A stretch of DNA of 64,000 nucleotides, from assembly GCF_054482595.1 (NCBI RefSeq), contig NZ_CM137008.1; one strand, written 5' to 3'. The notes beneath the pieces were generated by a model. It had not been told where the DNA came from, did no database searches, and saw only the letters and a list, made by a program, of their open reading frames with translations. The position numbers and the translations under genes are program-made. Positions 10,693 through 41,832 of the stretch are shown piece by piece. Each line of letters begins with the position of its first letter. Within the stretch, counting starts at the first letter, position 1.

Positions 10693-11574
10693 TCATGGGG
10701 CAGCATCATTAGGAGGGTATACATTGACCGATGTACTTACACGATGAAACTCTAGTATGTTGCCAGTATGGTGACCAGGGATAGCTTCAAACACCCCAAG
10801 AAATCGGTACAGTGTCCTGTTCAACTCATCACGAGAATGTGCCATAACAATTCGTTTATCCCAGCGTTCTGTGTATCCCTCATCATCCTTTATATTCCGC
10901 TCTATGATTTTGTTACCATCATCAGTCAATTCATTTCCCCAATCTGAATTTCCATATAGTTTTGGAAACCAAACCATGCATTTTCCTGATAGACCCATTG
11001 CTTCACTTATGTGAGAAGGAATGCTCCAACCGCCAGACTGATGATGTCCTTTGTTGTAACCGAAACAGTTCAAAGCATCCCGGTGGTATCTGAAGACGGC
11101 ATCTGGACCTACAGATATCCTTCCTGCCTTAAGATGAGGACGAGCTGTATATTTATTATCATAATCCCATTCTTTGAATTTTTTATCTTTAATCATTCTA
11201 TTTTTACGATTGCGTATCAACTCAATAAATTCATTGATATAACGATCGAAAATTTCAAGACTTATTTCGCTGGCGGGAATTCTTTTCTCTAAAAATCCTG
11301 TAACTTCAGTAATATCCATACGACGTTTCGCATCATCTATTTGTGATTGCTCACTGTTGTGATGCCCTTCATCAATTTCAAGATAAAGTTCCAGTTGTGG
11401 GAAAAATAAATCTGCCAAATAGATTTTTCCATTTTCTTTTCTGACACATTGCTGGCAGACAAATTCAATGTCGGGATCATTTAAAAGATGATAAATGCGA
11501 GTTACTGCATAATGTTCCCATCGTTTTTTTGAGGTTTTCGTAAGTGAACGTAGGATGTAATCAGTTTTATCCAT
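10693..11574 (-). CDS. Hypothetical protein, 293 aa, AT-rich, inside the satellite-like island
   Basis: Clean ORF; ELYLEIDEGHH and C-terminal KRIVMAH (Rx4H-like) motifs noted but no confident family assignment. Confidence 0.55.
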   Translation of the reverse strand: MDKTDYILRSLTKTSKKRWEHYAVTRIYHLLNDPDIEFVCQQCVRKENGKIYLADLFFPQLELYLEIDEGHHNSEQSQIDDAKRRMDITEVTGFLEKRIPASEISLEIFDRYINEFIELIRNRKNRMIKDKKFKEWDYDNKYTARPHLKAGRISVGPDAVFRYHRDALNCFGYNKGHHQSGGWSIPSHISEAMGLSGKCMVWFPKLYGNSDWGNELTDDGNKIIERNIKDDEGYTERWDKRIVMAHSRDELNRTLYRFLGVFEAIPGHHTGNILEFHRVSTSVNVYPPNDAAP

Positions 11575-11989: not shown

Positions 11990-12565
11990 TTATGTTGCTA
12001 CGGGTTCGTCGCATTTCGGTAGCCAGTCGCCGTAGCTTTCCTCTTTCAGCGACAGATTGGTTTGTATCCCCTGCTTAGTGTGCCGCTTCTCATAATTCAG
12101 GCCGTACTCTTTCAGCATCATGGGCAGCCCCAGCCCGAACATTTTCAGGCTGAGTACGTTCCTATACCCGTTAGCCTCCATATAGGCCAGATACGCGTGA
12201 TAGAGATATTTACGATAATTACGCGGGATGATGCTGGCATTCCCCATAAACATCCCGTTGGTCTGCGGGAGCATTTCCAGATAGCCGCAAAAATCAAACG
12301 TAGGGTCAGCATCGCGCTTGATGCTGAGCGCCTCGTCGGAATTCTGCTGTGACTGGAGCAGTGCGCAGGCTGCCATCGGGTCGCTGAACTTCTGCATGAG
12401 CTGGCGCACAATCACGGCCAGCTCGCGCGCAATTTTATCCCTGAGCTGCGGGTCGCGTTCCTCCGGCGCAATTTGCTCCGGGAAGTGAATAATCACCCGG
12501 CGACGTGACACACCACCGCTGCGGTCGGTGAAGCGCATGGGGTTATTGTTCACTGCCAGAATCAC
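11990..12565 (-). pseudogene. Truncated primase/helicase (P4 alpha-like, D5/SF3 family) C-terminal remnant
   Basis: Frame stays open upstream to about 12670 without a start codon (…LKAITGGDAVSVDPKYQNPYSTHIPAVILAVNNNPMRFTDRSGGVSRRRVIIHF…); far shorter than an intact alpha (~770 aa). Confidence 0.5.
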
Positions 12566-12722
12566 CGCCGGAATGTGTGTTGAGTACGGGTTCTGGTATT
12601 TCGGGTCAACCGAGACCGCATCGCCGCCGGTGATGGCCTTAAGCCCTGCGCCGTCACCGCCGCCGCGTAAAGTACAGGGCTGCTACAGCTCGCCGTTCCG
12701 GCATTAATCAGGAGAGAGACTC

Positions 12723-13289
12723 GTGACCACTGTGACCATACAGCAGGCCTTTGAGGCCTGTCAGACGAACAAAAATACCTGGCTGAAACGTAAAGCCGAA
12801 CTGGCAGACCTTGAACGGGAATACCGTGAACAGCTCCTTGCCGGTGACGAACAAATCCCGCGCAGAATGCAGGATTTGCGCGACAATTTCGACGTGAAAA
12901 AATGGGAGATTAATCAGGCCGCCGGTCGTTATATCCGCTCACATGAGGAAGTGCAGCACATCAGCATCCGCAACCGGCTCCATGACTTTATGCAGTAGCA
13001 CGGCGCGGAGCTGGCCGCCACGCTGGCACCTGAGCTGATGGGGTATAACGAACAGCTTCCCGCAGTAAAACAGAGCGCCATGCAGCACTCGGTTGATTAT
13101 CTGCGTGAAGCCCTGTCGGTATGGCTGGCTGCAGGTGAAAAAATTAATTATTCCGCGCAGGACAGCGATATTTTAACGGCCATCGGATTCAGGCCTGATG
13201 CGGCCTCGCGGGATGATAATCGCCAGAAATTCACCCCGGCACAGAACCTGATTTACACCCGCCGACGTGCAGAACTGGCCGCACGGTAG
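12723..13289 (+). pseudogene. psu: psu-like (P4 polarity suppression protein) gene with one in-frame TAG at 12999..13001
   Basis: ORFs 12723..12998 and 13038..13289 are in the same frame separated by a single amber; N-terminus MTTVTIQQAFEACQTNKNTW resembles recalled P4 Psu; combined length 188 codons. Confidence 0.55.
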
Positions 13290-13690
13290 CACGCAAAAAA
13301 ATCCGCAAAATTCCGCTATTTTTTCCGAAAAAAGCCATGCATCCATAAGGTGCATGGTTTTTCATGCAAATCCCCGTATTTTATTTTCCTCACCGCGCCA
13401 GTACCGGCGCGGCCTGAGCCGGTTCATGCACCTGCATTAAAAGCGACCTCTTAAGCGGGCAGGCGTGGCGGGGAGAGCATTGCGCGCGGAGTGGGTGTTT
13501 TATTTTTTGTATGTCACATAAACTTAAGGTATGCAGTACGTAGCTAGTTTCACTAATACTGGGACGAAAAGAATGGTGCGTTTGTAAAAATGTATTTTAA
13601 TTTTTGGATTGTGATACAGAGTAAATTTCATTTAATTTTGTATTTTAATTGCGGTAAGCTATAACAAACTTGAAAAGGAATTATAATCAC

Positions 13691-15352
13691 ATGAGGTATG
13701 TTGAAAATATGAAAATTCTAGTAACTGCACCTTCAAGAAAAAATCACCCAAAAAATAATGTATTGTATGATTTTATATTGCAACAAGATGATTGGAATGA
13801 TTTTAGTTTTATCACTAAGTATCATTTATACATTACAACGAAACTTACTGGTCTTGATGAAATAGAGTATGCTGGGGTTGTTAAAATTATAAAAAAAGAT
13901 CAGTCTGAAGCTGATTACTACATGGTTGAAGAAGGCGAGTTTTCATATTTGAGTGACGAGTTTTGTTCTGTGGGACAATCTCTTGATTATTATGGGAGGC
14001 TCTCTGAATTGGGGAGTGAAATTTGTGAGGGGATATTGACATCATTACGCGACATTAATATGTTTGATTATGTTTCTGAGGGTTTCAAAAATGAAAGAGC
14101 TTGGGAACGTTCTATCATGAGAGACTTAAATAATGATGATGATATTTTTATTCTTCCAAAGTTTATAATAAAAAATCAGTTCTCGGCTATACCTAGTATA
14201 GACATGAAGTTTTCATTTATGTATTCAGGAATGATTAATACTCTTTCGTTTGATTTCGATTCAATACAATATGGATATTTTGAAAGTGAAAAACTACCAT
14301 GTAGAATGTCCGTAATTGTAGGCCGGAACGGTTGTGGGAAGAGTACAACATTGGCAAGACTTTCTAGGGTTGCTTATTCTTCAACTCAGGACAGAAAAAA
14401 AGAACAGATAGCCAAAATTGGTGAAATTCTTCCAGAGGGATTAGGTTTTCCGAAAATAATCAACCTTTCATACAGTGCTTTTGATAGTTTTCAAATACCC
14501 GGGTGTACTTTTAAAGAAAAGAAACAGCTAAGGCAAGACATACTTGATGGGAAAGGTAGGTATATATATTGCGGAGTCAGGGATGTTGGTGCTGAATTGG
14601 ATTATGTATTGGCTAATGTAGATGAAAACAATATGGATATAGAGTTTATTACATTAGATAGGCAAGAGAGAACCATATTAAAACCTCTTGAAGTACTTAG
14701 TGAAGAGTTTTATGGTGTCTTGATAAAAATACATAAAGATAGTGATAAGTGGAATTTGTTTAATAAAGTGATGATGAAGTTGAGAGAAGAGGTTTCATTA
14801 TCTGAAATTATTGATGAAATCTTTAAAGATGATTTTATTCTTAAATCTAAAGAATATTTTCATAGGTTGAGTACAGGGCATAAATTTGTTTTGCATTCGA
14901 TGGCGCATATTTTGTTGTATATTGAAAAAAGATGCCTTGTTTTATTTGATGAGCCTGAAACTCATTTGCACCCGCCATTGCTTGCGGTTTTAATGAGCGC
15001 TCTGAGAATTGTTTTGAACGAAGTCGATGCTTTTGCTATTGTTGCTACTCATTCACCTGTGGTAGTACAAGAAACATTAAGTAAAAATGTTAATGTTATA
15101 ACTAGAAATGGGGAGTTTACTGATTTTCAACGACCTGAAATTGAAACTTTTGGTGAGAATATTGGAGCAATAACATCATCAGTATTTTCATTAACGACTC
15201 AAATAACTGATTATCATGATGAATTAGACAAGCTAATAATAGAATATAAAAATAATAATAATCCATTAGATGACATTGAAAAATGTTTTGATACAGGTCT
15301 TAGTACACAAGCAAGGTCTTATGTAATATCTAAATTAGCGGTAAAAGGATAA
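13691..15352 (+). CDS. ABC-type (AAA_15/AAA_21-like, SMC/RecF/OLD superfamily) ATPase with ~190-aa N-terminal extension; PtuA-like candidate defence ATPase
   Basis: Walker A VGRNGCGKST, signature-like LSTGHK, Walker B LVLFDEPETHLHP, H-loop ATHSP. AAAGGAA SD before ATG 13691; alternative starts TTG 13670 and ATG 13709. Strongly AT-rich. Confidence 0.8.
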   Translation: MRYVENMKILVTAPSRKNHPKNNVLYDFILQQDDWNDFSFITKYHLYITTKLTGLDEIEYAGVVKIIKKDQSEADYYMVEEGEFSYLSDEFCSVGQSLDYYGRLSELGSEICEGILTSLRDINMFDYVSEGFKNERAWERSIMRDLNNDDDIFILPKFIIKNQFSAIPSIDMKFSFMYSGMINTLSFDFDSIQYGYFESEKLPCRMSVIVGRNGCGKSTTLARLSRVAYSSTQDRKKEQIAKIGEILPEGLGFPKIINLSYSAFDSFQIPGCTFKEKKQLRQDILDGKGRYIYCGVRDVGAELDYVLANVDENNMDIEFITLDRQERTILKPLEVLSEEFYGVLIKIHKDSDKWNLFNKVMMKLREEVSLSEIIDEIFKDDFILKSKEYFHRLSTGHKFVLHSMAHILLYIEKRCLVLFDEPETHLHPPLLAVLMSALRIVLNEVDAFAIVATHSPVVVQETLSKNVNVITRNGEFTDFQRPEIETFGENIGAITSSVFSLTTQITDYHDELDKLIIEYKNNNNPLDDIEKCFDTGLSTQARSYVISKLAVKG

Positions 15353-15357
15353 TACAT

Positions 15358-16203
15358 ATGTGGACACTACCTTTACCAGATGATGCGGATAGAATGAGCG
15401 AGTTATTAACCGCTTTAACGTATAAAAATGGAAATCCTAAGTATGCTTTAACACAAGATGAAAAGGATAAAATTGAAACTATTTATACTTTATATCACGA
15501 TCGTAAAGCAACTCCCTGTGCTGAATTTTTAGCAGAGGAAATAAGTGATGAAACCCAAAATGCTATAAAAACAGCTTATTCAGAAGTGCAAATAAATGGA
15601 CGGCTTTCAACCCTTCGCTCAAGGATTTTATTAAGTTCTAAAAAATGCCCATTATGTGGGATCGAATCATCAACCGACCTAGATCATTATCTTCCCGAAT
15701 CAATATATAAATGTCTCGCAGTATATTCAAGAAACCTGATACCGACCTGTCATAAGTGCAATAATAAAAAAAGAGCTGGTGTAGCAGAAAATGGAGTTGG
15801 ATTTATTCATGTGTATTATTTTGATGAGCCCGATGGTGTATTTTTCGTTGCCAATACTGAAATGATAGATGGTGCTTTAGTAATTGATTTTAATATCAAT
15901 ATGATCGAGGGTATGACTCGAGAGGTATATGATTCATTATGCTTTCAAAATAGAGTTGTTAACCTAAATGAAAGGTTAAAGATGGAAGCGAATGATTTTT
16001 TAGGGGGGCTCTATACTTCACTTGAAGAAACATATAATTCTGCAGGCCAAGAAGGATTAAGATTATTTCTAAAAAGAACTAGGGATGACTATACCAGACG
16101 TTATGGGCTTAATCATTGGAGAAGAGCATTGATAGATAGTCTATCCGATAATGTGGAGTTCCTTGACGCTGGTTTTATTACTGCCTTAGGAACTCCAGAG
16201 TGA
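15358..16203 (+). CDS. HNH endonuclease-fold protein, 281 aa; PtuB-like candidate defence nuclease
   Basis: HNH motif KKCPLCG…DLDHYLPES…N…CHKCNNKK; starts 5 nt after the ATPase stop with AAAGGA SD (translational coupling); ends 2 nt before the convergent integrase. Confidence 0.8.
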   Translation: MWTLPLPDDADRMSELLTALTYKNGNPKYALTQDEKDKIETIYTLYHDRKATPCAEFLAEEISDETQNAIKTAYSEVQINGRLSTLRSRILLSSKKCPLCGIESSTDLDHYLPESIYKCLAVYSRNLIPTCHKCNNKKRAGVAENGVGFIHVYYFDEPDGVFFVANTEMIDGALVIDFNINMIEGMTREVYDSLCFQNRVVNLNERLKMEANDFLGGLYTSLEETYNSAGQEGLRLFLKRTRDDYTRRYGLNHWRRALIDSLSDNVEFLDAGFITALGTPE

Positions 16204-16205
16204 GT

Positions 16206-17399
16206 TTACTGGTGGGGATGAATATGTCGTCCCCACCAATTCATCAATTCAATTCTTGCGTGTAAATATGTTGAGCGATTGTAGGCTTTTCGTACTTCAT
16301 TTCTATCTGAATGAGCAAGAGCAGCCTCAATTACATCAGCATTAAAACCGGCTTCATTCATTGCCGTACTTGCAATCGAACGTAAACCATGTGCAACCAA
16401 TTTCCCACCATAACCTATTCGCTTAAGTGCAGCATTGGCAGTTTGGCTATTCATAGGTTGTTTTGGATTATTTCTGCTGGGAAAAACATGTTCTCGATGT
16501 GCACTAATAGGTTTCATCACATCCAGAATTTCTAATGCTTGTGGTGATAAAGGAACAATGTGTTCACGCTTAGCCTTCATTCGTTCGGCGGGAATCGTCC
16601 AGAGTTTGGCATTGAGATCGATCTCTACCCACCGAGCACCAGAAGCCTCAGAAGGGCGCACTAGGGTCAGAAGCTGCCATTCAATAAGACAGCGAGTCGG
16701 AACAGACAGATTCGACATGACCAGGGAACGCATAAGCTTAGGTAATTCTTCTGGCCGTAGCGTGGGCATATTTTGCTTTTTGGGTTTCTCAAAAGCCATT
16801 CCTACACCCGAAGCCGGGTTGGCATCTATCAGACCGGTATTAACCGCATAAATCATTATTTCGTTAATACGCTGAACTAGGCGACGAACCGTCTCTAATG
16901 CGCCACGTGCTTTGATTGGCTCCAATGCTTCAACAATCGTTCTGGCCTTTATATCCTGAACGGGCATCGCACCGATTGCCGGGAACACGTCTTTATCCAA
17001 AGAACGCCAAATATCCTTTGCATAATCCTCTGTGACACTTCTGCTTTTAATCTGGAACCAGTTAGCGGCCACAGTTGAGAAAATGCTGTCTAACTCAATC
17101 TGGCGTTGTGCTGACGCTTGCTCCTGTTGCTGTTGTGGATCCATGCCTTGCGCGAGCGTGGTTAAGTGCTGGTCGCGTATCTGACGAGCTGCTGCGAGTG
17201 TAAGGGCAGGGTATGAGCCGAGACTCAAATTTGTGCGGCTGCTGCTTCCCGGTCGTTGATAACGGAAGCGTCAGAGTTTTTTACCGGAGGTTTTGACGAG
17301 TAAGAACAGGCCATCACCATCATGCAGGGTGAAGTCTTTTTCGCGGGGTTTCGCTTTGAGGATTTCGTTGTTAGTGAGGGGGCGTGTAATGCGCGCCAT
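16206..17399 (-). pseudogene. intA: P4-family tyrosine integrase (intA-like) interrupted by an in-frame TGA after codon 42
   Basis: N-terminus MARITRPLTNNEILKAKPREKDFTLHDGDGLFLLVKTSGKKL, then TGA (complement 17271..17273), then the same frame continues RFRYQRPGSSSRTNLSLGSYPALT… into the 340-aa ORF. Confidence 0.8.
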
Positions 17400-17449
17400 G
17401 TCTGGATCCCTTCCATAATTGGTACACGTTTAATGGACCACAGTATAGC

Positions 17450-17477
17450 GTGTACCTAAACGTGTACCAATTTTCTC
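17450..17477. repeat. 28-bp direct repeat, right copy (between integrase and ssrA)
   Basis: Identical to 10614..10641. Confidence 0.8.
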
Positions 17478-17513
17478 TGGATTTAGCCGGATGTTCTCGG
17501 ACAACGACAGACA

Positions 17514-17582: not shown

Positions 17583-17945
17583 TGGTGGAGCTGGCGGGAG
17601 TTGAACCCGCGTCCGAAATTCCTACGTCCTCGGTACTACATGCTTAGTCAGTCTTTACATTCGCTTGCCAGCTGCGGACGGACACGCCACTAACAAACTA
17701 GCCTGATTAAGTTTTAACGCTTCAACCCCAGGCAGGGCCTCCACGCGATCTCTTTTGGGTTTGACCTCTCTTGATCCCCGTCCTAAGAGCGGAGGCTAGG
17801 GAGAGAGGGCTCTAAGCAGGTTATTAAGCTGCTAAAGCGTAGTTTTCGTCGTTTGCGACTATTTTTTGCGGCTTTTTACGAGGCCAACCGCCCCTCGGCA
17901 TGCACCTTGGGTTTCGCAAATCCCGTCGAATCCAGAATCAGCCCC
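17583..17945 (-). ncRNA. ssrA: tmRNA (SsrA), 363 nt
   Basis: Reverse complement begins GGGGCTGATTCTGGATTCGACGGG and ends …GGTTCAACTCCCGCCAGCTCCACCA, with the tag-coding region between. Confidence 0.95.
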
Positions 17946-27162: not shown

Positions 27163-27489
<327 letters not shown>

Positions 27490-27507
27490 TCTGTCACGGT
27501 GGTCATG

Positions 27508-28056
27508 ATGAGCAAACAACTCACCGCGCAAGCACCTGTTGATCCCATCGTTTTGGGAAAAATGGGTTCGTCTTACGGTATTCGTGGGTGGCTCAGAGTG
27601 TTTTCTTCCACCGAAGACGCCGAAAGCATTTTTGACTATCAGCCCTGGTTTATCCAGAAGGCGGGTCAGTGGCAGCAAGTCCAGCTGGAAAGCTGGAAGC
27701 ACCACAATCAGGACATGATCATCAAGCTGAAAGGCGTTGACGATCGTGATGCGGCGAACCTGCTGACAAATTGTGAAATTGTCGTGGATTCATCGCAGCT
27801 GCCTCAGCTTGAAGAGGGTGACTACTACTGGAAAGACCTGATGGGCTGCCAGGTAGTAACCACTGAAGGCTACGATCTCGGTAAAGTCGTCGATATGATG
27901 GAAACCGGATCCAATGACGTTCTCGTCATTAAGGCAAACCTGAAAGATGCGTTTGGTATCAAGGAACGTCTCGTACCGTTCCTCGATGGGCAGGTTATCA
28001 AGAAAGTCGATCTCACTACTCGTTCAATCGAAGTAGATTGGGATCCTGGTTTTTAA
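27508..28056 (+). CDS. rimM: Ribosome maturation factor RimM
   Basis: 182 aa from [10 protein letters not shown]…. Confidence 0.93.
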
Positions 28057-28086
28057 ACCACCGGATAAACGGTAAAAGACGGCGCT

Positions 28087-28854
28087 ATGTGGATTGGCAT
28101 AATTAGCCTGTTTCCTGAAATGTTCCGCGCAATTACCGATTACGGGGTAACTGGCCGGGCAGTTAAAAATGGCCTGCTGAGCATCCAGAGCTGGAGTCCT
28201 CGCGATTTCACGCATGACCGGCACCGTACCGTGGACGATCGTCCTTACGGCGGTGGACCGGGGATGTTAATGATGGTGCAACCCTTGCGGGACGCCATTC
28301 ATGCAGCAAAAGCCGCGGCGGGTGAAGGCGCAAAGGTGATTTATCTTTCACCACAGGGACGCAAGCTTGATCAAGCGGGCGTCAGCAAACTGGCAACGAA
28401 TCAAAAATTGATTCTGGTGTGCGGTCGCTACGAAGGTATAGATGAGCGCGTGATCCAAACCGAAATTGACGAAGAATGGTCAATCGGCGATTACGTTCTC
28501 AGTGGTGGTGAGTTACCAGCAATGACGCTGATTGACTCCGTTTCCCGGTTTATTCCGGGAGTACTGGGACATGAAGCCTCGGCAACGGAAGATTCCTTTG
28601 CTGAAGGATTGCTGGATTGCCCGCACTATACGCGGCCTGAGGTGTTAGAAGGGATGGAGGTTCCGCCAGTGTTACTGTCGGGCAACCATGCCGAGATACG
28701 TCGCTGGCGTTTGAAACAGTCGCTGGGCCGTACCTGGCTTAGAAGACCTGAACTTCTGGAAAACCTGGCTCTGACTGAAGAGCAAGCAAGGTTGCTGGCG
28801 GAGTTCAAAACGGAACACGCACAACAGCAACATAAACATGATGGGATGGCGTAA
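28087..28854 (+). CDS. trmD: tRNA (guanine37-N1)-methyltransferase TrmD
   Basis: 255 aa [13 protein letters not shown]…. Confidence 0.95.
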
Positions 28855-28892
28855 GCCCCCGAGATATCAGTTTACCCAGGATAAGAGATTAA

Positions 28893-29243
<351 letters not shown>

Positions 29244-29271
29244 GATTTCGCTTAAGCGACATCCTGTTAAG

Positions 29272-29302
29272 AAGGGCTGGCCAATTGGCTGGCCCTTTTT
29301 TT
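29272..29302. terminator. Bidirectional terminator between rplS and yfiB
   Basis: GGGCTGGCCAattggCTGGCCC followed by TTTTTTT. Confidence 0.75.
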
Positions 29303-29319
29303 ATCTGTTTGCTCGTGTT

Positions 29320-29802
29320 TTAAGGGGTAGTAATCACCACTGCGACGCGGCGGTTCTCGGCGCGGCCCTGGGCGGTCTTGTTACTGGCTATGGGATATTT
29401 TTTTCCTAAACCCTGTGTGGTGAGATTGCTGCGTGGAATTTGTCCACCCATAGCCCATGCATCGGCCACGACATTCGCCCGTTTCAATGATAAGCCTTCG
29501 TTGTAACTGTCTTCACCATAGTTATCGGTGTGTCCATCCATACGGGCATGTGTTAGCCCTGTCGAGGCCAATTTGGCTGCCATGGTTTGGATCTGTTGCT
29601 GGCTTTCCGGGAGCAATTTGTAGTCATTTTTTGCGAACAGAATGGCATCTGATAAGCCCAGCGACCAGTCGCCGGCGGATTCAGTAAATCCATAAGATTG
29701 CATAGCGGCGACTTGCTCAGGAGTAAACTTTCCCTGAGGGGACTGGCAGCCAGTCAGTATTAGTGAGGTGAAAATCAGGGGTGCTACCAGGTGCTTTATC
29801 AT
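29320..29802 (-). CDS. yfiB: OmpA-family lipoprotein YfiB
   Basis: 160 aa; lipobox LTGC; OmpA-like C-terminus. Confidence 0.9.
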   Translation of the reverse strand: MIKHLVAPLIFTSLILTGCQSPQGKFTPEQVAAMQSYGFTESAGDWSLGLSDAILFAKNDYKLLPESQQQIQTMAAKLASTGLTHARMDGHTDNYGEDSYNEGLSLKRANVVADAWAMGGQIPRSNLTTQGLGKKYPIASNKTAQGRAENRRVAVVITTP

Positions 29803-29817
29803 ATCGATATATCCTTG

Positions 29818-31044
29818 TTATCTCACCAGCTTTTCGGCACGCTGGTGTTTGGCCTGATACATATTGTGATCGGCCAGCTCTTGTAATTTTTCCGCAGAAG
29901 CGTGCGCAATGGTCATTGCGTAACCAATGCTTAATGTCATGGTGGTCTGATGGCCATTATGAAGATCAAACGGGAGATTAAAGATTTGTGTCAGTGCTGA
30001 GCATATCTGCTGCACTTCAGATTCCGACTGTACATCATAGAGCACCATAGCGAATTCATCGCCGCCCAGGCGGTATGCTTTATGTCGCAGCCCGCCAAAT
30101 TCAGCTAACCGTTTTGCGATTTCAATCAAGACTCTATCGCCCGTCGCATGACCCCAGGTATCATTGATATATTTGAAATTATCGCCATCAAGAAATAGTA
30201 ACGCCGACGTTTTTCGGGCATCGGAATTGTTCATCAACGTATTGATGCCGCTACGAAACGCTGCGCGGTTAGCCAGCCCGGTTAATGGGTCATGTAGCGC
30301 GGTACGCAGAAGCTGCGCATTTTTGGCCTGTAAACGAAGCTGCCACTCTTCCATTTCATCCAGCAGACTGTTGAAGTCGAGAGCGAAGCGGTGAAACTCA
30401 GCGATACGTTCTTCCGAAACTCGTCGGGAAAAATTGCGGTTGGAACGCACATCATGTACGACATCGGTGATATTTTTCAGTGCTTCCACCAGGCCATTGT
30501 GCAAATGGCGGGTGAGGGTAATTGCGATTCCTGATGCCAGCAGAATACAACCGGTCAGTACGGCGAGCGAAAACCAGATAAAATGGCTGATTGAACTGTC
30601 GCGAGCGGTTAAGCGTACTTCGCCAATGGTTTCACCATTGTGACGAATCGGCTGAATGATGGGGGCAGGGAAGAGCCAGTGGCTTATGAAATTGCTGAAA
30701 GTATCGCCTGGATCCTTACGGGTGTAATGCCAGGATGCCAGAATATTTTGCTGCTTATCACGTACTTCTGCAGTTGAAAATTGCCCTTGCTGGCCCAGCG
30801 CTGCCAGTGTTTCAGTTGCTGCAGGGCCATCGGCAAAAACGACAGCTGCTTCCAGACTGTAAGTCATTGTTGCTGCTGTCAGTGCCAGGTTTTTTTGCGC
30901 GTACTGTTTCAGGGTCAGCACCGAGGTCACGGAAAGCAGCAACCAGATCAGCATCATAGTGATAAATATGCTGGTCATACTGATGTTGCGTAATGCTCTT
31001 TTAAACGTGGGGCGCTTATTAAGAGAATTATCGTTATCCATCAT
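29818..31044 (-). CDS. dgcN: Diguanylate cyclase DgcN (YfiN)
   Basis: 408 aa; membrane/HAMP region then GGDEF (RLGGDEF). Confidence 0.93.
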
Positions 31045-31552
31045 TTTTCTTCCGTGCGAGCATTAAGACATCCGGGTTGACCTTTACACCGCTACGCGAT
31101 AAGGCATCCAGGTTTACGGCAAATCTGACGTCATTATTGTGGATGATCAGACAAAAGGCGCTACCAATAATGCACTCGGTATTTTGTTCGGCAATTAATA
31201 ATAACGCCTTTGACGGATATTGTTCGGTTAATTCCATCTGGAATGTCGGTGACTCGTTGCCAAAATAAAAACCATTGCAGCCTGAAATCATCGCCTCTTG
31301 TTGAGTGTGAATGATGACAGGCAGATAAGGCAAAGATGTCGCGGCATTCTCTTGTAGGGCGGTACTAAAACGTGAAGATGAAAAGATACATAACTTTGGT
31401 GGCCCTGATAGCGCAGGCCAGCGGGTGTAACTGACAATACCGGAAACCATCATACGCACGTTTTTCGCAACGTCAGAAGGCTCCTGAGCGAGTATTGGTG
31501 CTCCCGTCAGCAGGAGAATCAGCAGTAAGAACAGTCGGTGAGAAAAACGCAT
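31034..31552 (-). CDS. yfiR: Periplasmic repressor YfiR
   Basis: 172 aa with signal peptide; overlaps dgcN start by 11 nt. Confidence 0.9.
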
Positions 31553-31701
31553 TCAGGGATCCCCACCATCTTCGCTCGAAATGCATCGATATTTTTTCAG
31601 AATGCTCATTAAAATATCATTATTTCATGCGGTCGTCATCATTGTGAGAAATAAAACATAATGAGTAAAATCTTATGTTTAATTTATTTGTGGGGTTTTA
31701 A

Positions 31702-32067
31702 TTAATTTAATCGTATTGCGCTGGCATTTTCATCAGCCCCTTTTTGCCATACTTCATGCAGTTGGCTGGCATTTTCAACATTGTTGCAGCTGGCAGGAAA
31801 GCTTTTACCGGAAAGTCCTCGGGCATAAGTAAAATCGGTCTGGCAAGTTTTCTTTTGTCCTTCGGCATATCCTTTAAGGTATAGACCGCGATCCGCCTGT
31901 GAATCGCTAAATGCATCGTCATCTTTTATGGCGCTGCCCGATATCGCATCTTCCATACCAACATCATACCAGTCGGTGCTGGTCAAGGTTGGCGCGTGAG
32001 TATAAGGATCAATCTGGCATCCGCTAACCAGTAAAGCCAACAAGGGGGCGATAAACTTTTTCATCAT
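31702..32067 (-). CDS. yfiL: Lipoprotein YfiL
   Basis: 121 aa from MMKKFIAPLLALLVSGCQ; ORF track extends upstream to 32106. Confidence 0.8.
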   Translation of the reverse strand: MMKKFIAPLLALLVSGCQIDPYTHAPTLTSTDWYDVGMEDAISGSAIKDDDAFSDSQADRGLYLKGYAEGQKKTCQTDFTYARGLSGKSFPASCNNVENASQLHEVWQKGADENASAIRLN

Positions 32068-32112
32068 TTCTTTCTCCTTTTTCAAAGCATAGCGGATTGT
32101 TTTCAAAGGTGG

Positions 32113-32182
32113 TGTAAATTTATCTATACAGAATCAAGGGTTGAAAGCGCGAATAAATTGCTTCTGTAAAGAAAAATGTACG
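32113..32182. promoter_or_regulatory. TyrR boxes upstream of aroF
   Basis: TGTAAAtttatcTATACA (32113-32130) and TGTAAAgaaaaaTGTACG (32165-32182), close to the TGTAAA-N6-TTTACA consensus. Confidence 0.65.
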
Positions 32183-32276
32183 AAATATGGATTGAAAACT
32201 TTACTTTATGTGTTATCGTTACGTCATCCTCGCTGAGGATCAACTATCGCAAACGAGCATAAACAGGATCGCCATC

Positions 32277-33347
32277 ATGCAAAAAGACGCGCTGAATAAC
32301 GTACATATTACCGACGAACAGGTTTTAATGACTCCGGCACAACTGAAGGCCGCTTTTCCATTAAGCCTGCAACAAGAAGCCCAGATTGCTGACTCGCGTA
32401 AAACCATTTCAGATATTATCGCCGGGCGCGATCCTCGTCTGCTGGTAGTATGTGGTCCTTGTTCCATTCATGATCCGGAAACTGCTCTGGAATATGCTCG
32501 TCGATTTAAAGCCCTTGCCGCAGAGGTCAGCGATAGCCTCTATCTGGTAATGCGCGTCTATTTTGAAAAACCCCGTACCACTGTCGGCTGGAAAGGGTTA
32601 ATTAACGATCCCCATATGGATGGCTCTTTTGATGTAGAAGCCGGGCTGCAGATCGCGCGTAAATTGCTGCTTGAGCTGGTGAATATGGGACTGCCACTGG
32701 CGACGGAAGCGTTAGATCCGAATAGCCCGCAATACCTGGGCGATTTGTTTAGCTGGTCAGCAATTGGTGCTCGTACAACGGAATCGCAAACTCACCGTGA
32801 AATGGCCTCCGGGCTTTCCATGCCGGTTGGTTTTAAAAACGGCACCGACGGCAGTCTGGCAACAGCAATTAACGCTATGCGCGCCGCCGCCCAGCCGCAC
32901 CGTTTTGTTGGCATTAACCAGGCAGGTCAGGTTGCGTTGCTACAAACTCAGGGGAATCCGGACGGACATGTGATCCTGCGCGGTGGTAAAGCGCCGAACT
33001 ATAGCCCTGCGGATGTTGCGCAATGTGAAAAAGAGATGGAACAGGCGGGACTGCGCCCGTCTCTGATGGTAGATTGCAGCCACGGTAATTCCAATAAAGA
33101 TTATCGCCGTCAGCCTGCGGTGGCAGAATCCGTGGTTGCTCAAATCAAAGATGGCAATCGCTCAATTATTGGTCTGATGATCGAAAGTAATATCCACGAG
33201 GGCAATCAGTCTTCCGAGCAACCGCGCAGTGAAATGAAATACGGTGTATCCGTAACCGATGCCTGCATTAGCTGGGAAATGACCGATGCCTTGCTGCGTG
33301 AAATTCATCAGGATCTGAACGGGCAGCTGACGGCTCGCGTGGCTTAA
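32277..33347 (+). CDS. aroF: DAHP synthase, Tyr-sensitive (AroF)
   Basis: 356 aa from [15 protein letters not shown]…; ORF track starts 23 codons earlier. Confidence 0.93.
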
Positions 33348-33357
33348 GAGGTTTATT

Positions 33358-34479
33358 ATGGTTGCTGAATTGACCGCATTACGCGATCAAATTGATGAAG
33401 TCGATAAAGCGCTGCTGAATTTATTAGCGAAGCGTCTGGAACTGGTTGCTGAAGTGGGCGAGGTGAAAAGCCGCTTTGGACTGCCTATTTATGTTCCGGA
33501 GCGCGAGGCATCTATGTTGGCCTCGCGTCGTGCAGAGGCGGAAGCTCTGGGTGTACCGCCAGATCTGATTGAGGATGTTTTGCGTCGGGTGATGCGTGAA
33601 TCTTACTCCAGTGAAAACGACAAAGGATTTAAAACACTTTGTCCTGCGTTACGCCCGGTAGTTATCGTTGGCGGCGGCGGTCAGATGGGACGCCTGTTCG
33701 AGAAGATGCTGACACTATCGGGTTATCAGGTGCGGATTCTGGAGCAACATGACTGGGATCGAGCGGCTGATATTGTTGCCGATGCCGGAATGGTGATTGT
33801 TAGTGTGCCAATCCACGTTACTGAGCAAGTTATCGGCAAATTACCGCCTTTACCGAAAGATTGTATTCTGGTTGATCTGGCATCAGTGAAAAATGGACCA
33901 TTACAGGCCATGCTGGCGGCGCACGATGGCCCGGTACTGGGGTTACACCCGATGTTCGGCCCGGACAGCGGTAGCCTGGCAAAGCAAGTTGTGGTCTGGT
34001 GTGATGGACGTAAGCCGGAAGCATACCAATGGTTTCTGGAGCAAATTCAGGTCTGGGGCGCTCGGTTGCATCGTATTAGCGCTGTCGAGCACGATCAGAA
34101 TATGGCGTTTATTCAGGCACTGCGCCACTTTGCTACTTTTGCTTACGGGCTGCACCTGGCAGAAGAAAATGTTCAGCTTGAGCAACTTCTGGCGCTCTCT
34201 TCGCCGATTTACCGCCTTGAGCTGGCGATGGTCGGGCGACTGTTTGCTCAGGATCCGCAGCTTTATGCCGACATCATTATGTCGTCAGAGCGTAATCTGG
34301 CGTTAATCAAACGTTACTATAAGCGTTTCGGCGAGGCGATTGAGTTGCTGGAGCAGGGCGATAAGCAGGCGTTTATTGACAGTTTCCGCAAGGTGGAGCA
34401 CTGGTTCGGCGATTACGCACAGCGTTTTCAGAGTGAAAGCCGCGTGTTATTGCGTCAGGCGAATGACAATCGCCAGTAA
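33358..34479 (+). CDS. tyrA: Chorismate mutase / prephenate dehydrogenase TyrA
   Basis: 373 aa [26 protein letters not shown]…. Confidence 0.95.
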
Positions 34480-34521
34480 TAATCCAGTGCCGGATGATTC
34501 ACATCATCCGGCACCTTTTCA

Positions 34522-35682
34522 TCAGGTTGGATCAACAGGCACTACGTTCTCACTTGGGTAACAGCCCAATACCTTCATTGAACGGGTGATTTCCCCTAAC
34601 TCTTTCAATGCTTTTTGCATTTCCGCTGATTCAAGATTGGCCTGAATATCCAGATAAAACATCTCTTCCCATGGATTACCGTGAATCGGGCGTGATTCCA
34701 GACGGGTCATAATCAGATTGTGGTTGCGCAGTACCAGCAACGCTTCAACCAGCGCACCGGCTTGTTGCCCGGTCGCCATTAACAACGTCGTTTTCGCCGG
34801 AACCTGATCAGACACGTTAATGGCTTTACGCGCCAACACCACAAATCGGGTGAAGTTTTGTCGCTGATTCGCTTCAATCCGCTCCAGTACCTGCAAACCG
34901 TACAAAGTGCCGCCAGCTTCGCTTCCCAACGCAGCAACATGCGGTGATTTTGCCTGTGCAACCTTTTCCATTGCCGCAGACGTACTTTCGGTATATTCAA
35001 TCTTCCAGTGCGGATAACGATTAAGGAATTTGCTGCATTGCTGGAATGGCTGCGGATGGCTGTAGACCGTATTGATGGTGGATAAATCAGTCGTGCCGGA
35101 GACTAACAAACAATGGTCGATAGTTAACGTCATCTCGCCAACAATCGACAAGCTGGTATGTTGCAGCAGATCGTAAACGTCATTTATGGCACCGGAGCTG
35201 GTATTTTCAATCGGTACGACGGCATAGTCGGCCTGGCCGGTTTCCACCTGATTAAAAATATCGGCAAATTTGGCGCAGCCACTTTCAATGAATTGCTCAA
35301 AGTGACGCGCAGCATACTGGCGCGCCGCAAGATGGGAATAAGAACCTTTGGGGCCGAGAAAAGCGATGCGTGCTGAGTGCGGATTAATTTTATTGAGATG
35401 TTGTTGGAGCAAAGCCTGCTGAGTTAATACGGAATCTTCAATGATGAGCTGGAACAGGCGAGTAATGTAATGGGCGTCCAGATGGTGCGCTTTACCGAGC
35501 GTAATTAATCTTTCCAGTAAATCGCGTTCACGATCAATATCACGTACCGGGCGATGCGAGAGCAGTTTGGCTTTTCCCACCTCGACGGCCAGTTCGCGCC
35601 GCTCTGCGAGTAATGCTAATAATTTTTCATCCAGCGCGCTGATTTTCTCTCGCAGCGCCAGTAACGGGTTTTCCGATGTCAT
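34522..35682 (-). CDS. pheA: Chorismate mutase / prephenate dehydratase PheA
   Basis: 386 aa [29 protein letters not shown]…. Confidence 0.95.
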
Positions 35683-35703
35683 AGTGTTGCCTTTTTGTTA
35701 TCA

Positions 35704-35734
35704 ATAAAAAAGGCCCCCCGATTTGGGAGGCCTT
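35704..35734 (-). terminator. pheA attenuator terminator
   Basis: Minus strand AAGGCCTCCCAAATCGGGGGGCCTTTTTTATTG between pheL and pheA. Confidence 0.8.
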
Positions 35735-35780
35735 ATTGTTCGTCTTCGCATTCTGTTTCACACGACGAAACGCCTCCCAT

Positions 35781-35828
35781 TCAGGGGAAGGTAAAAAAGA
35801 ATGCGAAGAAAAACGGTGTATGTTTCAT
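35781..35828 (-). CDS. pheL: phe operon leader peptide (15 aa, 7 Phe)
   Basis: ATG AAA CAT ACA CCG TTT TTC TTC GCA TTC TTT TTT ACC TTC CCC TGA = [15 protein letters not shown]. Confidence 0.85.
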   Translation of the reverse strand: [15 protein letters not shown]

Positions 35829-35882
35829 GTTTGTTTCCTTAAGTGACTTTAGTACAGTACCCGTACTGTTTTCACGCTGTCA

Positions 35883-35910
35883 ACAAAAAACGCGCCCGAA
35901 GGCGCGTTGG
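35883..35910 (-). terminator. raiA terminator
   Basis: Minus strand AACGCGCCttcgGGCGCGTTTTTT. Confidence 0.7.
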
Positions 35911-35931
35911 CGATACACTCAATATAAAGGA

Positions 35932-36327
<396 letters not shown>

Positions 36328-36543
36328 TCAAAATGTGTGATGGAAATCTCATAATTTTGTCACTTTTTGTCAACGAATCTTTTTTGTGAGAAATCGCAGG
36401 AAGAGGTGTTTTTTTACTTGAGGAATATCTCAAAGCGAGCCATATTTGATGAGATCGATAGTGACTAAATCGCTTCAGTTTCACAACTGACAGAATAAAA
36501 AAACGGCAGCTCAAGGGCTGCCGTTTTGTGTTTCAGGTTTCTG

Positions 36544-37281
36544 TTATGTATTGCTGCTGTTTGCGGCGATGATTTTCGCTACTTTTTCAGCTTGCGCATT
36601 CATCTGCATCTGACGGTATGCATTTTCCATCAGCGGCAGCGCATCACGCGTAGCCTGGGTATCCGGGTAGTCGCGCAACATGCCTTCTACGCGGTTAACG
36701 ACGGCAACCCATGCGCCACGTTCTGTATAGTACTCGGCCACGGAGTATTCATATTTCGCCAGACGATCTTTCAGGAATACCAGACGTTTGGTGGCATCGG
36801 TGGTGTACTGACTGTTTGGATAGCCGCGCACCAGTTTGGAAAAGTCACTAAACGCAGCTCGTGCATGTTGAGGATCTCGATCGCTACGGTCAACGCCAAA
36901 GAACCCTTGCAGCGCACTGTCATCCAGCGCCATATTGGTCAGGCCACGCATGTACATGACATAATCGATATTCGGATGGGTCGGGTTAAGGCGAATAAAA
37001 CGATCGATGGCAGCCTGCGCTAACGGCAAATCGGCGTTTTTATAGTAGGCGTAGATGAGATCCAGCTGCACCTGCTGCGAATACGGACCAAACGGATAGC
37101 GATTATCTAACGCTTCCAGTTGCGTTATTGCCTGTCTCCAGTTACCGTCCTGCAGCTTTTGTTGTGCAGTCGCGTAAATTTCATTTGGCGGATTATCAGG
37201 TACTTCTTCCTTTGACCCCGAGCAACCCGCCAAAAACAGGCTTAGTGTGGCGGCTGCCACCAGATATTTCATGCGCGTCAT
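36544..37281 (-). CDS. bamD: Outer membrane protein assembly factor BamD
   Basis: 245 aa; lipobox LAGCSG; TPR-like. Confidence 0.95.
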
Positions 37282-37415
37282 GACGTTTTGACTTTCCTCA
37301 AAATGTAATACGGGAGATTCTCTGTTCCTGCTCCCGGTTAAGACCAGCTACAATAGCACACTATATTAAACGGCAAAGCCGTAAAACCCCAACGATAAAC
37401 GAAGAAGCAGTATAT

Positions 37416-38396
37416 ATGGCACAACGAGTACAGCTCACTGCAACGGTGTCCGAAAACCAACTCGGTCAACGCTTAGATCAGGCTTTGGCCGAAATGTTCC
37501 CGGATTATTCACGTTCGCGAATAAAAGAATGGATCCTCGACCAGCGCGTGCTGGTTAACGGCAAACTTTGTGATAAGCCGAAAGAAAAAGTATTGGGTGG
37601 CGAGCAGGTTGCCATCAACGCAGAGATTGAAGAAGAAGCGCGTTTTGAACCGCAGGATATCCCGCTGGATATCGTCTATGAAGATGAAGACATCATCGTC
37701 ATTAATAAACCGCGCGACCTGGTGGTTCATCCTGGCGCGGGTAACCCGGATGGCACGGTACTGAATGCGTTGCTTCATTATTATCCGCCTATTGCCGATG
37801 TACCGCGTGCGGGCATCGTCCATCGTCTGGATAAAGACACCACTGGCCTGATGGTTGTGGCAAAAACCGTTCCGGCTCAGACGCGTTTAGTCGAATCTTT
37901 GCAAAGGCGTGAAATTACTCGTGAGTACGAAGCGGTGGCGATTGGTCATATGACCGCTGGCGGTACGGTGGATGAGCCAATCAGTCGCCACCCGACCAAA
38001 CGTACTCACATGGCGGTGCATCCGATGGGCAAACCAGCGGTGACTCACTATCGCATCATGGAACACTTCCGTGTGCACACGCGTCTGCGGTTGCGTCTGG
38101 AAACTGGACGTACGCACCAGATCCGCGTGCATATGGCCCATATCACTCATCCGCTGGTGGGCGATCCGGTTTATGGTGGCCGTCCGCGTCCGCCAAAAGG
38201 TGCTTCGGAAGCGTTTATCTCCACGCTGCGTAAGTTTGACCGCCAGGCGCTTCATGCAACCATGCTGCGTCTTTATCATCCGATCTCCGGCATCGAAATG
38301 GAATGGCATGCGCCTATTCCACAAGATATGGTGGAGCTGATTGAGGCGATGCGTGCCGATTTCGAAGAACATAAGGATGAAGTGGACTGGTTATGA
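37416..38396 (+). CDS. rluD: 23S rRNA pseudouridine synthase RluD
   Basis: 326 aa; S4 domain then RluA-type catalytic HRLDKDTTG. Confidence 0.95.
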   Translation: MAQRVQLTATVSENQLGQRLDQALAEMFPDYSRSRIKEWILDQRVLVNGKLCDKPKEKVLGGEQVAINAEIEEEARFEPQDIPLDIVYEDEDIIVINKPRDLVVHPGAGNPDGTVLNALLHYYPPIADVPRAGIVHRLDKDTTGLMVVAKTVPAQTRLVESLQRREITREYEAVAIGHMTAGGTVDEPISRHPTKRTHMAVHPMGKPAVTHYRIMEHFRVHTRLRLRLETGRTHQIRVHMAHITHPLVGDPVYGGRPRPPKGASEAFISTLRKFDRQALHATMLRLYHPISGIEMEWHAPIPQDMVELIEAMRADFEEHKDEVDWL

Positions 38397-39124
38397 GTAA
38401 GCTGATTGTCCCGCAGTGGCCGCTGCCAAAAGGTGTTGCGGCTTGTAGCTCTACTCGTATCGGCGGCGTGAGCTTGCCCCCGTATGACTCGCTCAACCTC
38501 GGTGCCCATTGTGGCGATAACCCGGATCATGTTGAGGAGAATCGCAAGCGACTTTTTGCTGCGGGCAATTTGCCTTCTAAACCGGTCTGGCTTGAGCAGG
38601 TACACGGCAAAGATGTGCTTAAGCTTACTGGCGAACCTTATGCCTCAAAACGAGCAGATGCCTCTTATAGCAATACGCCTGGCACGGTTTGCGCAGTGAT
38701 GACTGCCGACTGCCTCCCTGTGCTGTTTTGCAATCGAGCGGGAACGGAAGTCGCCGCCGCTCATGCTGGCTGGCGTGGACTGTGCGCAGGCGTGCTGGAA
38801 GAGACAGTTTCCTGTTTTGCTGATAATCCGGAAAATATTCTCGCCTGGTTAGGGCCGGCAATTGGTCCACGCGCGTTCGAAGTGGGGGCGGAGGTTCGCG
38901 AGGCGTTTATGGCAGCAGACGCCAAAGCGAGTACAGCTTTCATTCAGCATGGTGATAAGTATCTGGCGGATATTTATCTGCTTGCCCGGCAGCGTCTGGC
39001 GAGCGTTGGTGTTGAACAAATTTTCGGCGGCGACCGTTGTACATATACGGAAAATGAGACTTTCTTCTCTTATCGTCGCGACAAGACCACCGGGCGTATG
39101 GCAAGTTTCATTTGGCTGATATAA
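38393..39124 (+). CDS. yfiH: Purine nucleoside phosphorylase-like protein YfiH (PgeF)
   Basis: 243 aa; 4-nt ATGA overlap with rluD stop. Confidence 0.9.
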   Translation: MSKLIVPQWPLPKGVAACSSTRIGGVSLPPYDSLNLGAHCGDNPDHVEENRKRLFAAGNLPSKPVWLEQVHGKDVLKLTGEPYASKRADASYSNTPGTVCAVMTADCLPVLFCNRAGTEVAAAHAGWRGLCAGVLEETVSCFADNPENILAWLGPAIGPRAFEVGAEVREAFMAADAKASTAFIQHGDKYLADIYLLARQRLASVGVEQIFGGDRCTYTENETFFSYRRDKTTGRMASFIWLI

Positions 39125-41827: not shown

Positions 41828-41832
41828 ATGAT

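What the first reader, a model, noticed from the sequence alone, without database searches (positions are those of the whole stretch)
17271..17273. Integrase inactivated by a single in-frame TGA at a Trp-type position
Minus-strand translation from ATG 17399 gives a typical P4-integrase N-terminus for 42 codons, then TGA, then continues in the same frame (RFRYQRPGSS…LSLGSYPALT…) into the 340-aa ORF. A single nonsense codon, not a frameshift, splits the gene, consistent with immobilisation of the island while retaining its cargo.
Basis: seen in the sequence. Interest (0 to 1): 0.5.

Follow-up and report, generated by a model that had tools for sequence, protein, structure and literature searches.

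The report
Integrase pseudogene in decayed P4-like island
A single G-to-A change turned a conserved tryptophan codon into a stop in the integrase of a small, already decayed phage-satellite island next to the E. coli tmRNA gene; this is an ordinary pseudogene that public annotation already flags.

Summary
On the minus strand, ATG 17399 opens a P4-type integrase gene. Codon 43 (17273..17271) is TGA, and the same frame runs on for 354 codons to the stop at 16206. Eight intact relatives have TGG there, and Trp is present in 132 of 132 aligned homologues, in P4 Int and in a solved arm-binding domain. Fifteen complete E. coli genomes carry the identical TGA allele, so it is not a sequencing error. 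RefSeq already marks the gene "internal stop". One public contig matches 3209 nt of the island with a single difference, TGG at this codon, so the change is recent. dN/dS against relatives is 0.05-0.09, and all catalytic residues are intact.

The gene lies in a 6.86-kb remnant of a P4-like satellite, flanked by a perfect 28-nt repeat 105 bp downstream of ssrA. psu also has a nonsense codon. delta, sid, the immunity region, epsilon and most of the primase are deleted. Three defence genes are full length: a Septu-like ATPase with its HNH partner, and an AbaSI-type nuclease.

The one open point is low-level UGA-C readthrough by Trp-tRNA. Interest is low.

The parts
16206..17399 (-). P4-type (DUF4102 / Arm-DNA-bind_3) tyrosine integrase pseudogene, 397 codons with one internal stop
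   Evidence: RefSeq annotates the same gene as 'internal stop'. It is 36% identical to P4 Int, E 1e-85.
17271..17273 (-). Premature TGA at codon 43, ancestral TGG (Trp). The next base is C, giving the context CUC UGA C.
   Evidence: Locus L011 differs from the window only at 17271 over 3209 nt.
17442..17470 (-). Sigma-70-like promoter match upstream of int (TTGGTA, 17 nt, TATACT), overlapping the att core. This is a consensus match only.
17450..17477 (+). attL core: 28-nt perfect direct repeat GTGTACCTAAACGTGTACCAATTTTCTC, 105 bp downstream of the ssrA 3' end
   Evidence: The same core (23 nt) flanks the intact 10.96-kb element of strain GF3-3.
10614..10641 (+). attR core, second copy of the 28-nt repeat. 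It marks the island boundary on the ypjA side.
17583..17945 (-). ssrA (tmRNA) gene, intact. It is the chromosomal landmark next to the integration site.
15358..16203 (+). HNH endonuclease, full-length defence cargo (PADLOC PDC-M01B; weak PtuB match). It is convergent with int, with the two stop codons 2 bp apart.
13670..15352 (+). AAA ATPase, full-length defence cargo (PADLOC PDC-M01A 1.3e-99; PtuA 1.3e-73). It occupies the int-psu hotspot of P4-like satellites.
   Evidence: The hotspot is described in PMC9122126.
13462..13480 (+). cos-like cohesive-end sequence GGCGTGGCGGGGAGAGCAT (16 of 19 to P4 cos, identical to the intact GF3-3 element), within a region 76% identical to the P4 cos region
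12723..13289 (+). psu (polarity suppression) pseudogene. Codon 92 is TAG at 12996-12998, CAG in intact relatives.
11990..12658 (-). Remnant of the alpha primase-helicase gene. Only the C-terminal part is left (phrog_2249 positions 619-801 of 802). It abuts the sequence just upstream of psu.
10693..11574 (-). AbaSI-family, modification-dependent type II restriction endonuclease, full length, next to attR
   Evidence: PADLOC mREase_II, 4.2e-122, residues 1-291 of 293.

Best explanation
The gene is the integrase of a P4-like phage satellite that integrated just downstream of the tmRNA gene. A recent G-to-A transition changed the invariant Trp43 codon TGG to TGA. Translation therefore ends after 42 residues, inside the arm-DNA-binding domain. 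The core-binding and catalytic domains (89% of the protein) are not made, apart from rare readthrough. The 6.86-kb island keeps both att cores and a cos-like site, so the DNA substrates for excision and packaging are still there. The recombinase is missing, and so are the satellite's replication, regulation and helper-exploitation genes. The island is therefore fixed in the chromosome and inherited vertically, while its three anti-phage genes remain intact. Shown here: the sequence facts, the ancestral state, the recency of the change and the distribution. Inferred: loss of recombinase activity and of excision.
For: The anatomy of the stop is established. TGG is present in six intact relatives at the same ssrA site and in two near-identical intact alleles. 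W43 is found in 132 of 132 aligned homologues, with R248, K275, H337, R340, H363 and Y373 all present in the window. W is conserved in P4 Int and in PDB 3ju0.

The change is not an error. Fifteen complete genomes carry a 100% identical gene and a >=99.9% identical 6971-nt island. The truncated 340-aa ORF is on 933 contigs. PGAP flags 'internal stop'.

The change is recent. dN/dS is 0.05-0.09 against seven intact relatives. The exact repaired protein exists on two contigs. L011 differs from the window over 3209 nt only at position 17271.

The island context is clear. It has 28-nt perfect repeats, and the same core flanks the complete satellite in GF3-3. psu carries CAG->TAG and only a remnant of alpha is left. 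The defence genes are full length.

Inheritance looks vertical. Thirteen of the 15 carriers share a >=99.8% identical 24-kb core stretch. The other two share long identical flanks that run beyond the att sites.
Against: No functional measurement exists. UGA is the leakiest stop in E. coli: K-12 reporters give about 2% readthrough at 37 C and 4% at 25 C through Trp-tRNA-Trp (PMC10570021). Here, readthrough would insert the original Trp, so a trace of wild-type Int cannot be excluded. Both att cores, a promoter-like site and every catalytic residue are intact, so the gene is one reversion away from function. In strain TB06051 the block of identity with the window ends only 120 bp outside attR. 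Homologous recombination explains this, but it is not proven.
Confidence: 0.88

Rival explanations
1. The integrase is attenuated rather than dead. The UGA followed by C is occasionally read by Trp-tRNA-Trp. This restores the exact wild-type protein at roughly the percent level or below, giving rare excision or integration.
For: The context is CUC UGA C. UGA readthrough by Trp-tRNA-Trp is about 2-4% in E. coli K-12 reporters (PMC10570021). A C after UGA weakens termination; this is stated for other systems in PMC9841425, and for E. coli it rests on my own knowledge of Poole et al. 1995. All catalytic residues, both att cores and a promoter-like site are intact.
Against: Non-K-12 E. coli generally carry a more active RF2 than K-12 (own knowledge), so readthrough is probably well under 2%. 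Integrases work as multimers, so activity should fall faster than protein level. No excisionase or regulator gene is left in the island. No SECIS-like or other stimulatory structure follows the stop. The island's distribution looks vertical.
Confidence: 0.1
2. Translation restarts downstream (TTG58, ATG86 or GTG110). This would give an N-terminally truncated integrase that keeps the core-binding and catalytic domains and some activity.
For: In-frame start codons exist after the stop. Gene callers do predict 340-aa and 312-aa products.
Against: No start codon has a properly spaced Shine-Dalgarno sequence. The AAGG before ATG86 lies only 1 nt upstream of it. Any such product would lack part or all of the arm-binding domain (residues 8-94). 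Own knowledge from lambda Int: arm binding is needed for integrative and excisive recombination.
Confidence: 0.03
3. The TGA is a sequencing or assembly error and the real gene is intact.
For: Two public contigs carry TGG in an otherwise identical or near-identical gene.
Against: Fifteen independent complete genomes from different laboratories, hosts and countries have the identical TGA. The truncated ORF is on 933 contigs.
Confidence: 0.01
4. The TGA is a programmed recoding site, such as selenocysteine or regulated readthrough.
For: None beyond the in-frame UGA.
Against: No Rfam element is found there. The 91 nt around and after the stop fold no better than shuffled sequence (z = -0.59). All relatives encode Trp with TGG.
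Confidence: 0.005

Closest known systems
Phage-satellite P4 integrase and the enterobacterial 'CP4-like' DUF4102 integrases (for example IntA of cryptic prophage CP4-57 at ssrA)
   Same: It has the same three-domain architecture: Arm-DNA-bind_3, central domain and catalytic domain. It is 36% identical to P4 Int over 402 residues and 49.5% identical to an intA-annotated integrase. The R-K-H-R-H-Y set is conserved. Integration is beside a tRNA-like gene with direct repeats.
   Different: The ORF is interrupted at codon 43. The att core lies 105 bp downstream of ssrA, beyond its terminator, rather than inside the 3' end of the RNA gene. A second site inside the ssrA 3' end is used by other elements.
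P4-like satellites with a defence hotspot between int and psu (Rousset et al. 2022, PMC9122126; Moura de Sousa and Rocha 2022, PMC8628076)
   Same: The gene order int, variable defence cargo, cos, psu is the same. Relatives at this site carry Drt3, a helicase-nuclease pair, a retron, SIR2, or HEPN with DUF262 in the same slot. Here the slot holds a Septu-like ATPase with an HNH nuclease.
   Different: Only three of the seven core components are detectable, and all three are defective. That is below the five-of-seven threshold used to call a P4-like satellite. An extra AbaSI-type nuclease lies between the alpha remnant and attR.
Cryptic, decayed prophage and satellite remnants of E. coli kept for their cargo (own knowledge, for example the CP4 elements of K-12)
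   Same: Mobility and replication genes are lost through point mutation and deletion, while accessory genes are retained and the element is inherited vertically.
   Different: Nothing of principle differs. This case is unusually 'fresh', because an intact-integrase copy that differs by one base still exists in public data.

Membership tests
P4-type (DUF4102) tyrosine integrase | N-terminal arm-type DNA-binding domain (Pfam Arm-DNA-bind_3) | tested here: met
   Residues 8-94 of the conceptual translation match with E 5.1e-23. PDB 3ju0 and 3jtz also match. The stop falls inside this domain.
P4-type (DUF4102) tyrosine integrase | Central core-binding domain plus C-terminal catalytic domain with the R-K-H-R-H-Y residues | tested here: met
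   Phage_int_M matches residues 107-198 and Phage_integrase matches 213-378. R248, K275, H337, R340, H363 and Y373 are present and conserved in 132-134 homologues.
P4-type (DUF4102) tyrosine integrase | Sequence homology to P4 Int itself | tested here: met
   36% identity over 402 residues, E 1e-85. NCBIfam PRK09692 scores 580 bits against a cut-off of 434.
P4-type (DUF4102) tyrosine integrase | Uninterrupted reading frame that encodes the full protein | tested here: not met
   TGA at codon 43. RefSeq marks it a pseudogene with an 'internal stop'. It is a pseudogene of this family, not a functional member.
P4-type (DUF4102) tyrosine integrase | Site-specific recombination activity (integration and excision) | not testable with these tools
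   This needs an excision PCR or a recombination assay.
P4-type (DUF4102) tyrosine integrase | The element is bounded by direct repeats (att cores) next to a tRNA or tmRNA gene | tested here: met
   A 28-nt perfect repeat lies at 10614-10641 and 17450-17477, with 0 expected by chance. The same core bounds the intact GF3-3 element.
P4-like phage satellite (seven core components, at least five required; PMC8628076) | int present | tested here: inconclusive
   Present only as a nonsense pseudogene.
P4-like phage satellite (seven core components, at least five required; PMC8628076) | psu present | tested here: inconclusive
   Present only as a pseudogene, CAG->TAG at codon 92. Both halves match phrog_6366.
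P4-like phage satellite (seven core components, at least five required; PMC8628076) | delta, sid, alpA and epsilon present | tested here: not met
   No such ORFs or annotations lie between the att cores. The intact relative GF3-3 has them between psu and the primase. No P4 immunity RNA was found by Rfam.
P4-like phage satellite (seven core components, at least five required; PMC8628076) | alpha primase-helicase present | tested here: not met
   Only the C-terminal remnant is left, profile positions 619-801 of 802. PGAP notes 'missing N-terminus'.
P4-like phage satellite (seven core components, at least five required; PMC8628076) | cos site for packaging by a P2-like helper | tested here: met
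   The cos-like 19-mer at 13462-13480 is identical to that of the intact GF3-3 element and matches P4 cos at 16 of 19 positions. Function was not tested.
Septu-like two-gene defence system (cargo) | PtuA-type AAA ATPase next to an HNH nuclease partner, both full length | tested here: met
   PDC-M01A 1.3e-99 and PtuA 1.3e-73. PDC-M01B 2.6e-37 and PtuB 1.8e-08. The profiles are covered almost end to end. The best models are the PDC-M01 candidate family, so it is Septu-like rather than canonical Septu. Defence activity was not tested.
Programmed UGA recoding (selenocysteine) | SECIS hairpin immediately downstream of the UGA | tested here: not met
   No Rfam hit. Folding z-score is -0.59.

The most novel reading that the evidence does not exclude
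The TGG-to-TGA change is a 'soft' knock-down rather than a knock-out. UGA-C at a Trp codon is read through by Trp-tRNA-Trp, and the product is then exactly the wild-type integrase. The lineage would therefore keep a very low excision capacity that depends on condition (temperature, cAMP), while the defence island stays stable. A related idea is that premature termination in int lowers convergent transcription into the facing defence operon, whose stop codon is 2 bp from the int stop codon.
Probability: 0.1. Interest if true: 0.35.

Novelty: already known. Interest (0 to 1): 0.1.

Why it matters
The case matters little on its own. It is a textbook example of how a mobile element becomes domesticated: mobility genes are lost through point mutation and deletion, while anti-phage cargo is kept. 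It is unusually well resolved, because an intact allele that differs by a single base still circulates. That makes the strain pair a convenient natural control for measuring how much an integrase contributes to the stability of a defence island. For annotation, the 340-aa and 312-aa 'integrase' proteins deposited for this locus (933 and 11 contigs) are fragments of a pseudogene.

Tried and rejected
1. Empty-site test. I joined the two flanks across one copy of the 28-nt core and searched 5,426 E. coli genomes. No genome has the unoccupied junction, so the boundaries rest instead on the direct repeat and on comparison with GF3-3.

2. SECIS or recoding structure. None was found.

3. Downstream restart. 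No start codon has a usable Shine-Dalgarno sequence.

4. Intact psu allele. The exact look-up of the repaired psu found nothing, and only the C-terminal fragment is on record (421 contigs). This is weak evidence, because gene callers may choose other start codons.

5. Horizontal spread of the dead-integrase island. Two carriers (strains 2824 and TB06051) differ from the rest in a distant 24-kb core stretch. Both, however, share long identical flanks that run beyond the att sites. That fits homologous recombination or local mosaicism, not site-specific transfer.

6. Poole et al. 1995 (PMC398062), on the effect of the fourth base in E. coli, is not held in the library. That point rests on my own knowledge.

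7. Structure prediction was not run, because sequence evidence was decisive.

Full report
**1. The observation**

On the minus strand an ORF starts at ATG 17399 and reads MARITRPLTNNEILKAKPREKDFTLHDGDGLFLLVKTSGKKL. It then meets TGA at 17273..17271. The same frame continues for 354 more codons (RFRYQRPGSSSRTNLSLGSYPALT...) to the stop at 16206, with no further stop and no frameshift. The description is accurate at the stated coordinates.

**2. It is an integrase gene, and the stop replaces a conserved Trp**

- **Family match.** With Trp at codon 43, the 397-aa translation matches NCBIfam PRK09692 over residues 1-392 (580 bits; cut-off 434).
- **Domains.** It matches three Pfam domains: Arm-DNA-bind_3 (8-94), Phage_int_M (107-198) and Phage_integrase (213-378). 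The stop lies inside the arm-binding domain.
- **Homology to P4 Int.** Identity is 36% over 402 residues (E 1e-85). P4 Int has W at the aligned position, in the motif K-x-W-R. PDB 3ju0 also has W there.
- **Intact relatives.** Six intact genes at the same chromosomal site in other E. coli all read TGG where the window reads TGA. A seventh intact protein has W as well.
- **Wider conservation.** W43 is found in 132 of 132 residues aligned at that column among database homologues. The catalytic residues R248, K275, H337, R340, H363 and Y373 are conserved there and present in the window.

**3. It is real and already annotated**

The region is identical to E. coli O157:H16 strain Santai and to 14 other complete genomes. 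In a distant 24-kb stretch the best match is strain SM107. All 15 genomes carry the 1215-nt gene region at 100% identity, TGA included, and the whole 6971-nt island at >=99.9%. They come from humans, poultry, pigs, a duck and water, in several countries, so a sequencing artefact is excluded. RefSeq (PGAP) already labels the gene in Santai 'integrase domain-containing protein, internal stop'. It does the same in strains 2824 and TB06051.

**4. Direction and age of the change**

- **Purifying selection until recently.** dN/dS between the window allele and seven intact relatives is 0.05-0.09, with dS from 0.42 to 1.7. The allele was therefore under strong purifying selection for essentially all of its history, and it shows no second lesion.
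- **The intact allele still exists.** An exact-sequence look-up found the repaired 397-aa protein in public data on two contigs. The truncated 340-aa and 312-aa products are on 933 and 11 contigs.
- **One-base difference.** Contig L011 (Logan ERR11525761) matches window 14300-17508 with a single difference in 3209 nt, at 17271. It reads G there on the coding strand, giving TGG where the window has TGA.
- **A second intact haplotype.** Contig L010 differs from the window allele at four further sites, all synonymous.
- **Conclusion.** The TGA allele is the derived state, one transition away from a still-circulating intact allele.

**5. Context: a decayed P4-like satellite**

*Boundaries.* A perfect 28-nt direct repeat, GTGTACCTAAACGTGTACCAATTTTCTC, lies at 17450-17477 and at 10614-10641. 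The first copy is between the ssrA terminator and int. None is expected by chance. In strain GF3-3 the same core (23 nt) flanks a complete 10.96-kb P4-like satellite at the same site. That element carries primase, Icd-like, HTH, capsid/Sid-like and delta-like genes, psu, Drt3a/b and int. The ypjA-side flank of GF3-3 is identical to the window's up to the repeat and diverges right after it.

*Content.* The window's element is only 6.86 kb. Its parts are:

| Part | Coordinates | State |
|---|---|---|
| int | 16206-17399 (-) | W43 changed to stop |
| HNH nuclease | 15358-16203 (+) | full length |
| AAA ATPase | 13670-15352 (+) | full length |
| cos-like site | 13462-13480 | retained |
| psu | 12723-13289 (+) | CAG->TAG at codon 92 |
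| alpha primase remnant | 11990-12658 (-) | profile positions 619-801 of 802 only |
| AbaSI-type nuclease | 10693-11574 (-) | full length |

These assignments rest.

*What is missing.* delta, sid, the immunity region, epsilon and three quarters of alpha are gone. No P4 immunity RNA was detected. Under the published seven-component definition, which requires at least five (PMC8628076), this is a remnant and not a functional satellite.

*What is kept.* The ATPase-HNH pair sits in the int-psu slot that Rousset et al. describe as a defence hotspot (PMC9122126). Relatives at this site carry other systems there. The PADLOC profiles cover all three defence proteins nearly end to end. In short, three of three satellite genes are broken and three of three defence genes are intact.

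**6. How it most likely works**

*Shown:*
- The stop removes 354 of 397 codons.
- Both att cores, a promoter-like site and a cos-like site persist.
- No other closely related integrase is present in these genomes: there is one matching place per genome.
- Thirteen of the 15 carriers share a >=99.8% identical distant core stretch.
- The other two share long identical flanks that extend beyond the att sites.

*Inferred:* without Int the element cannot excise. It also cannot replicate or exploit a helper, so it is inherited vertically as a fixed defence islet.

The TGA is therefore one of several independent disabling events. It is probably the latest, because an intact-int copy is on record but no intact-psu copy was found. 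The psu evidence is weak.

**7. Rivals**

- **Sequencing error.** Excluded.
- **Selenocysteine or programmed recoding.** There is no SECIS-like element or unusual structure.
- **Restart.** TTG58, ATG86 and GTG110 lack properly spaced Shine-Dalgarno sequences. Any product would also lack the arm-binding domain.
- **Leaky readthrough.** This is the only rival that I cannot exclude. The context is CUC-UGA-C. UGA is read by Trp-tRNA-Trp at about 2% (37 C) to 4% (25 C) in E. coli K-12 reporters (PMC10570021), and here that would rebuild the wild-type protein. From my own knowledge, UGA-C is the weakest E. coli termination signal (Poole et al. 1995, not held), and non-K-12 strains have a more active RF2. 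I put the chance that this gives biologically meaningful recombination at about 0.1.

**8. Comparison with what is known, and verdict**

The gene is a pseudogene of the P4-type DUF4102 integrase family. The element is a remnant of the P4-like satellites that carry defence hotspots. Decay of mobility genes with retention of cargo is the standard fate of such elements. The pseudogene is already flagged in RefSeq.

- **Novelty:** already known.
- **Interest:** low (0.1).

Noticed in passing
window 12723-13289 (+), stop at 12996-12998: psu, the polarity-suppression and capsid-decoration gene of the satellite, is also split by a single nonsense codon. It is CAG->TAG at codon 92, another G:C-to-A:T transition. 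Both halves still match the Psu profile.
   Followed up: yes
window 11990-12658 (-) and junction near 12652-12658: Only the C-terminal quarter of the alpha primase-helicase is left. It is fused directly to the sequence just upstream of psu. One deletion seems to have removed delta, sid, the immunity region, epsilon and the N-terminal three quarters of alpha, judged against the intact GF3-3 element.
   Followed up: partly
window 13299-13487 (cos-like 19-mer at 13462-13480): A P4-type cos region survives downstream of psu. It is 76% identical to P4, and its 19-mer is identical to that of an intact relative. The packaging signal has therefore outlived the genes that would use it.
   Followed up: partly
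window 10693-11574 (-): A full-length AbaSI-family, modification-dependent restriction endonuclease lies between the primase remnant and attR. In GF3-3 this position is empty, which suggests a second cargo slot at the alpha-att end of these satellites.
   Followed up: partly
L013 (strain 2824) 27186-46971; L010 1-3976: There are two distinct integration sites at ssrA. Other elements use a site inside the 3' end of ssrA and sit in tandem between ssrA and this island. In strain 2824 this is a P2-like prophage carrying an IS26 insertion. On a metagenome contig it is an integrase plus an AbiL-type system. The P2-like prophage is the helper type for P4 satellites.
   Followed up: partly
L014 (strain TB06051) versus window 8797-10493 and 10494-37531: In TB06051 the ypjA side is densely diverged from the window up to 10493. 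From 10494 to 37531 there are only 7 differences. The recombination breakpoint therefore lies within 120 bp of attR. It is probably homologous recombination in the variable ypjA region, but the closeness to the att core is unexplained.
   Followed up: partly
window 16203-16206: int and the HNH defence gene are convergent, and their stop codons are 2 bp apart. Transcription of int would run antisense into the defence operon. Whether the premature stop changes this, for example through Rho-dependent polarity, is untested.
   Followed up: no
window 17450-17477 and 17442-17470: The att core contains an internal repeat, GTGTACC-TAAAC-GTGTACC. It also overlaps the only sigma-70-like promoter match upstream of int, so the int promoter would be split by excision.
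   Followed up: no
public protein records for this locus: The 340-aa fragment is deposited under misleading names, including one attributed to Ligilactobacillus acidipiscis (MAG, HJE97219.1). That attribution looks like contamination or mis-binning of E. coli DNA.
   Followed up: no
window 38000-62000: In this stretch the window is 100% identical to strain SM107 and 99.9% identical to Santai. The window may therefore come from SM107 or a close relative rather than Santai. This does not affect the finding.
   Followed up: partly
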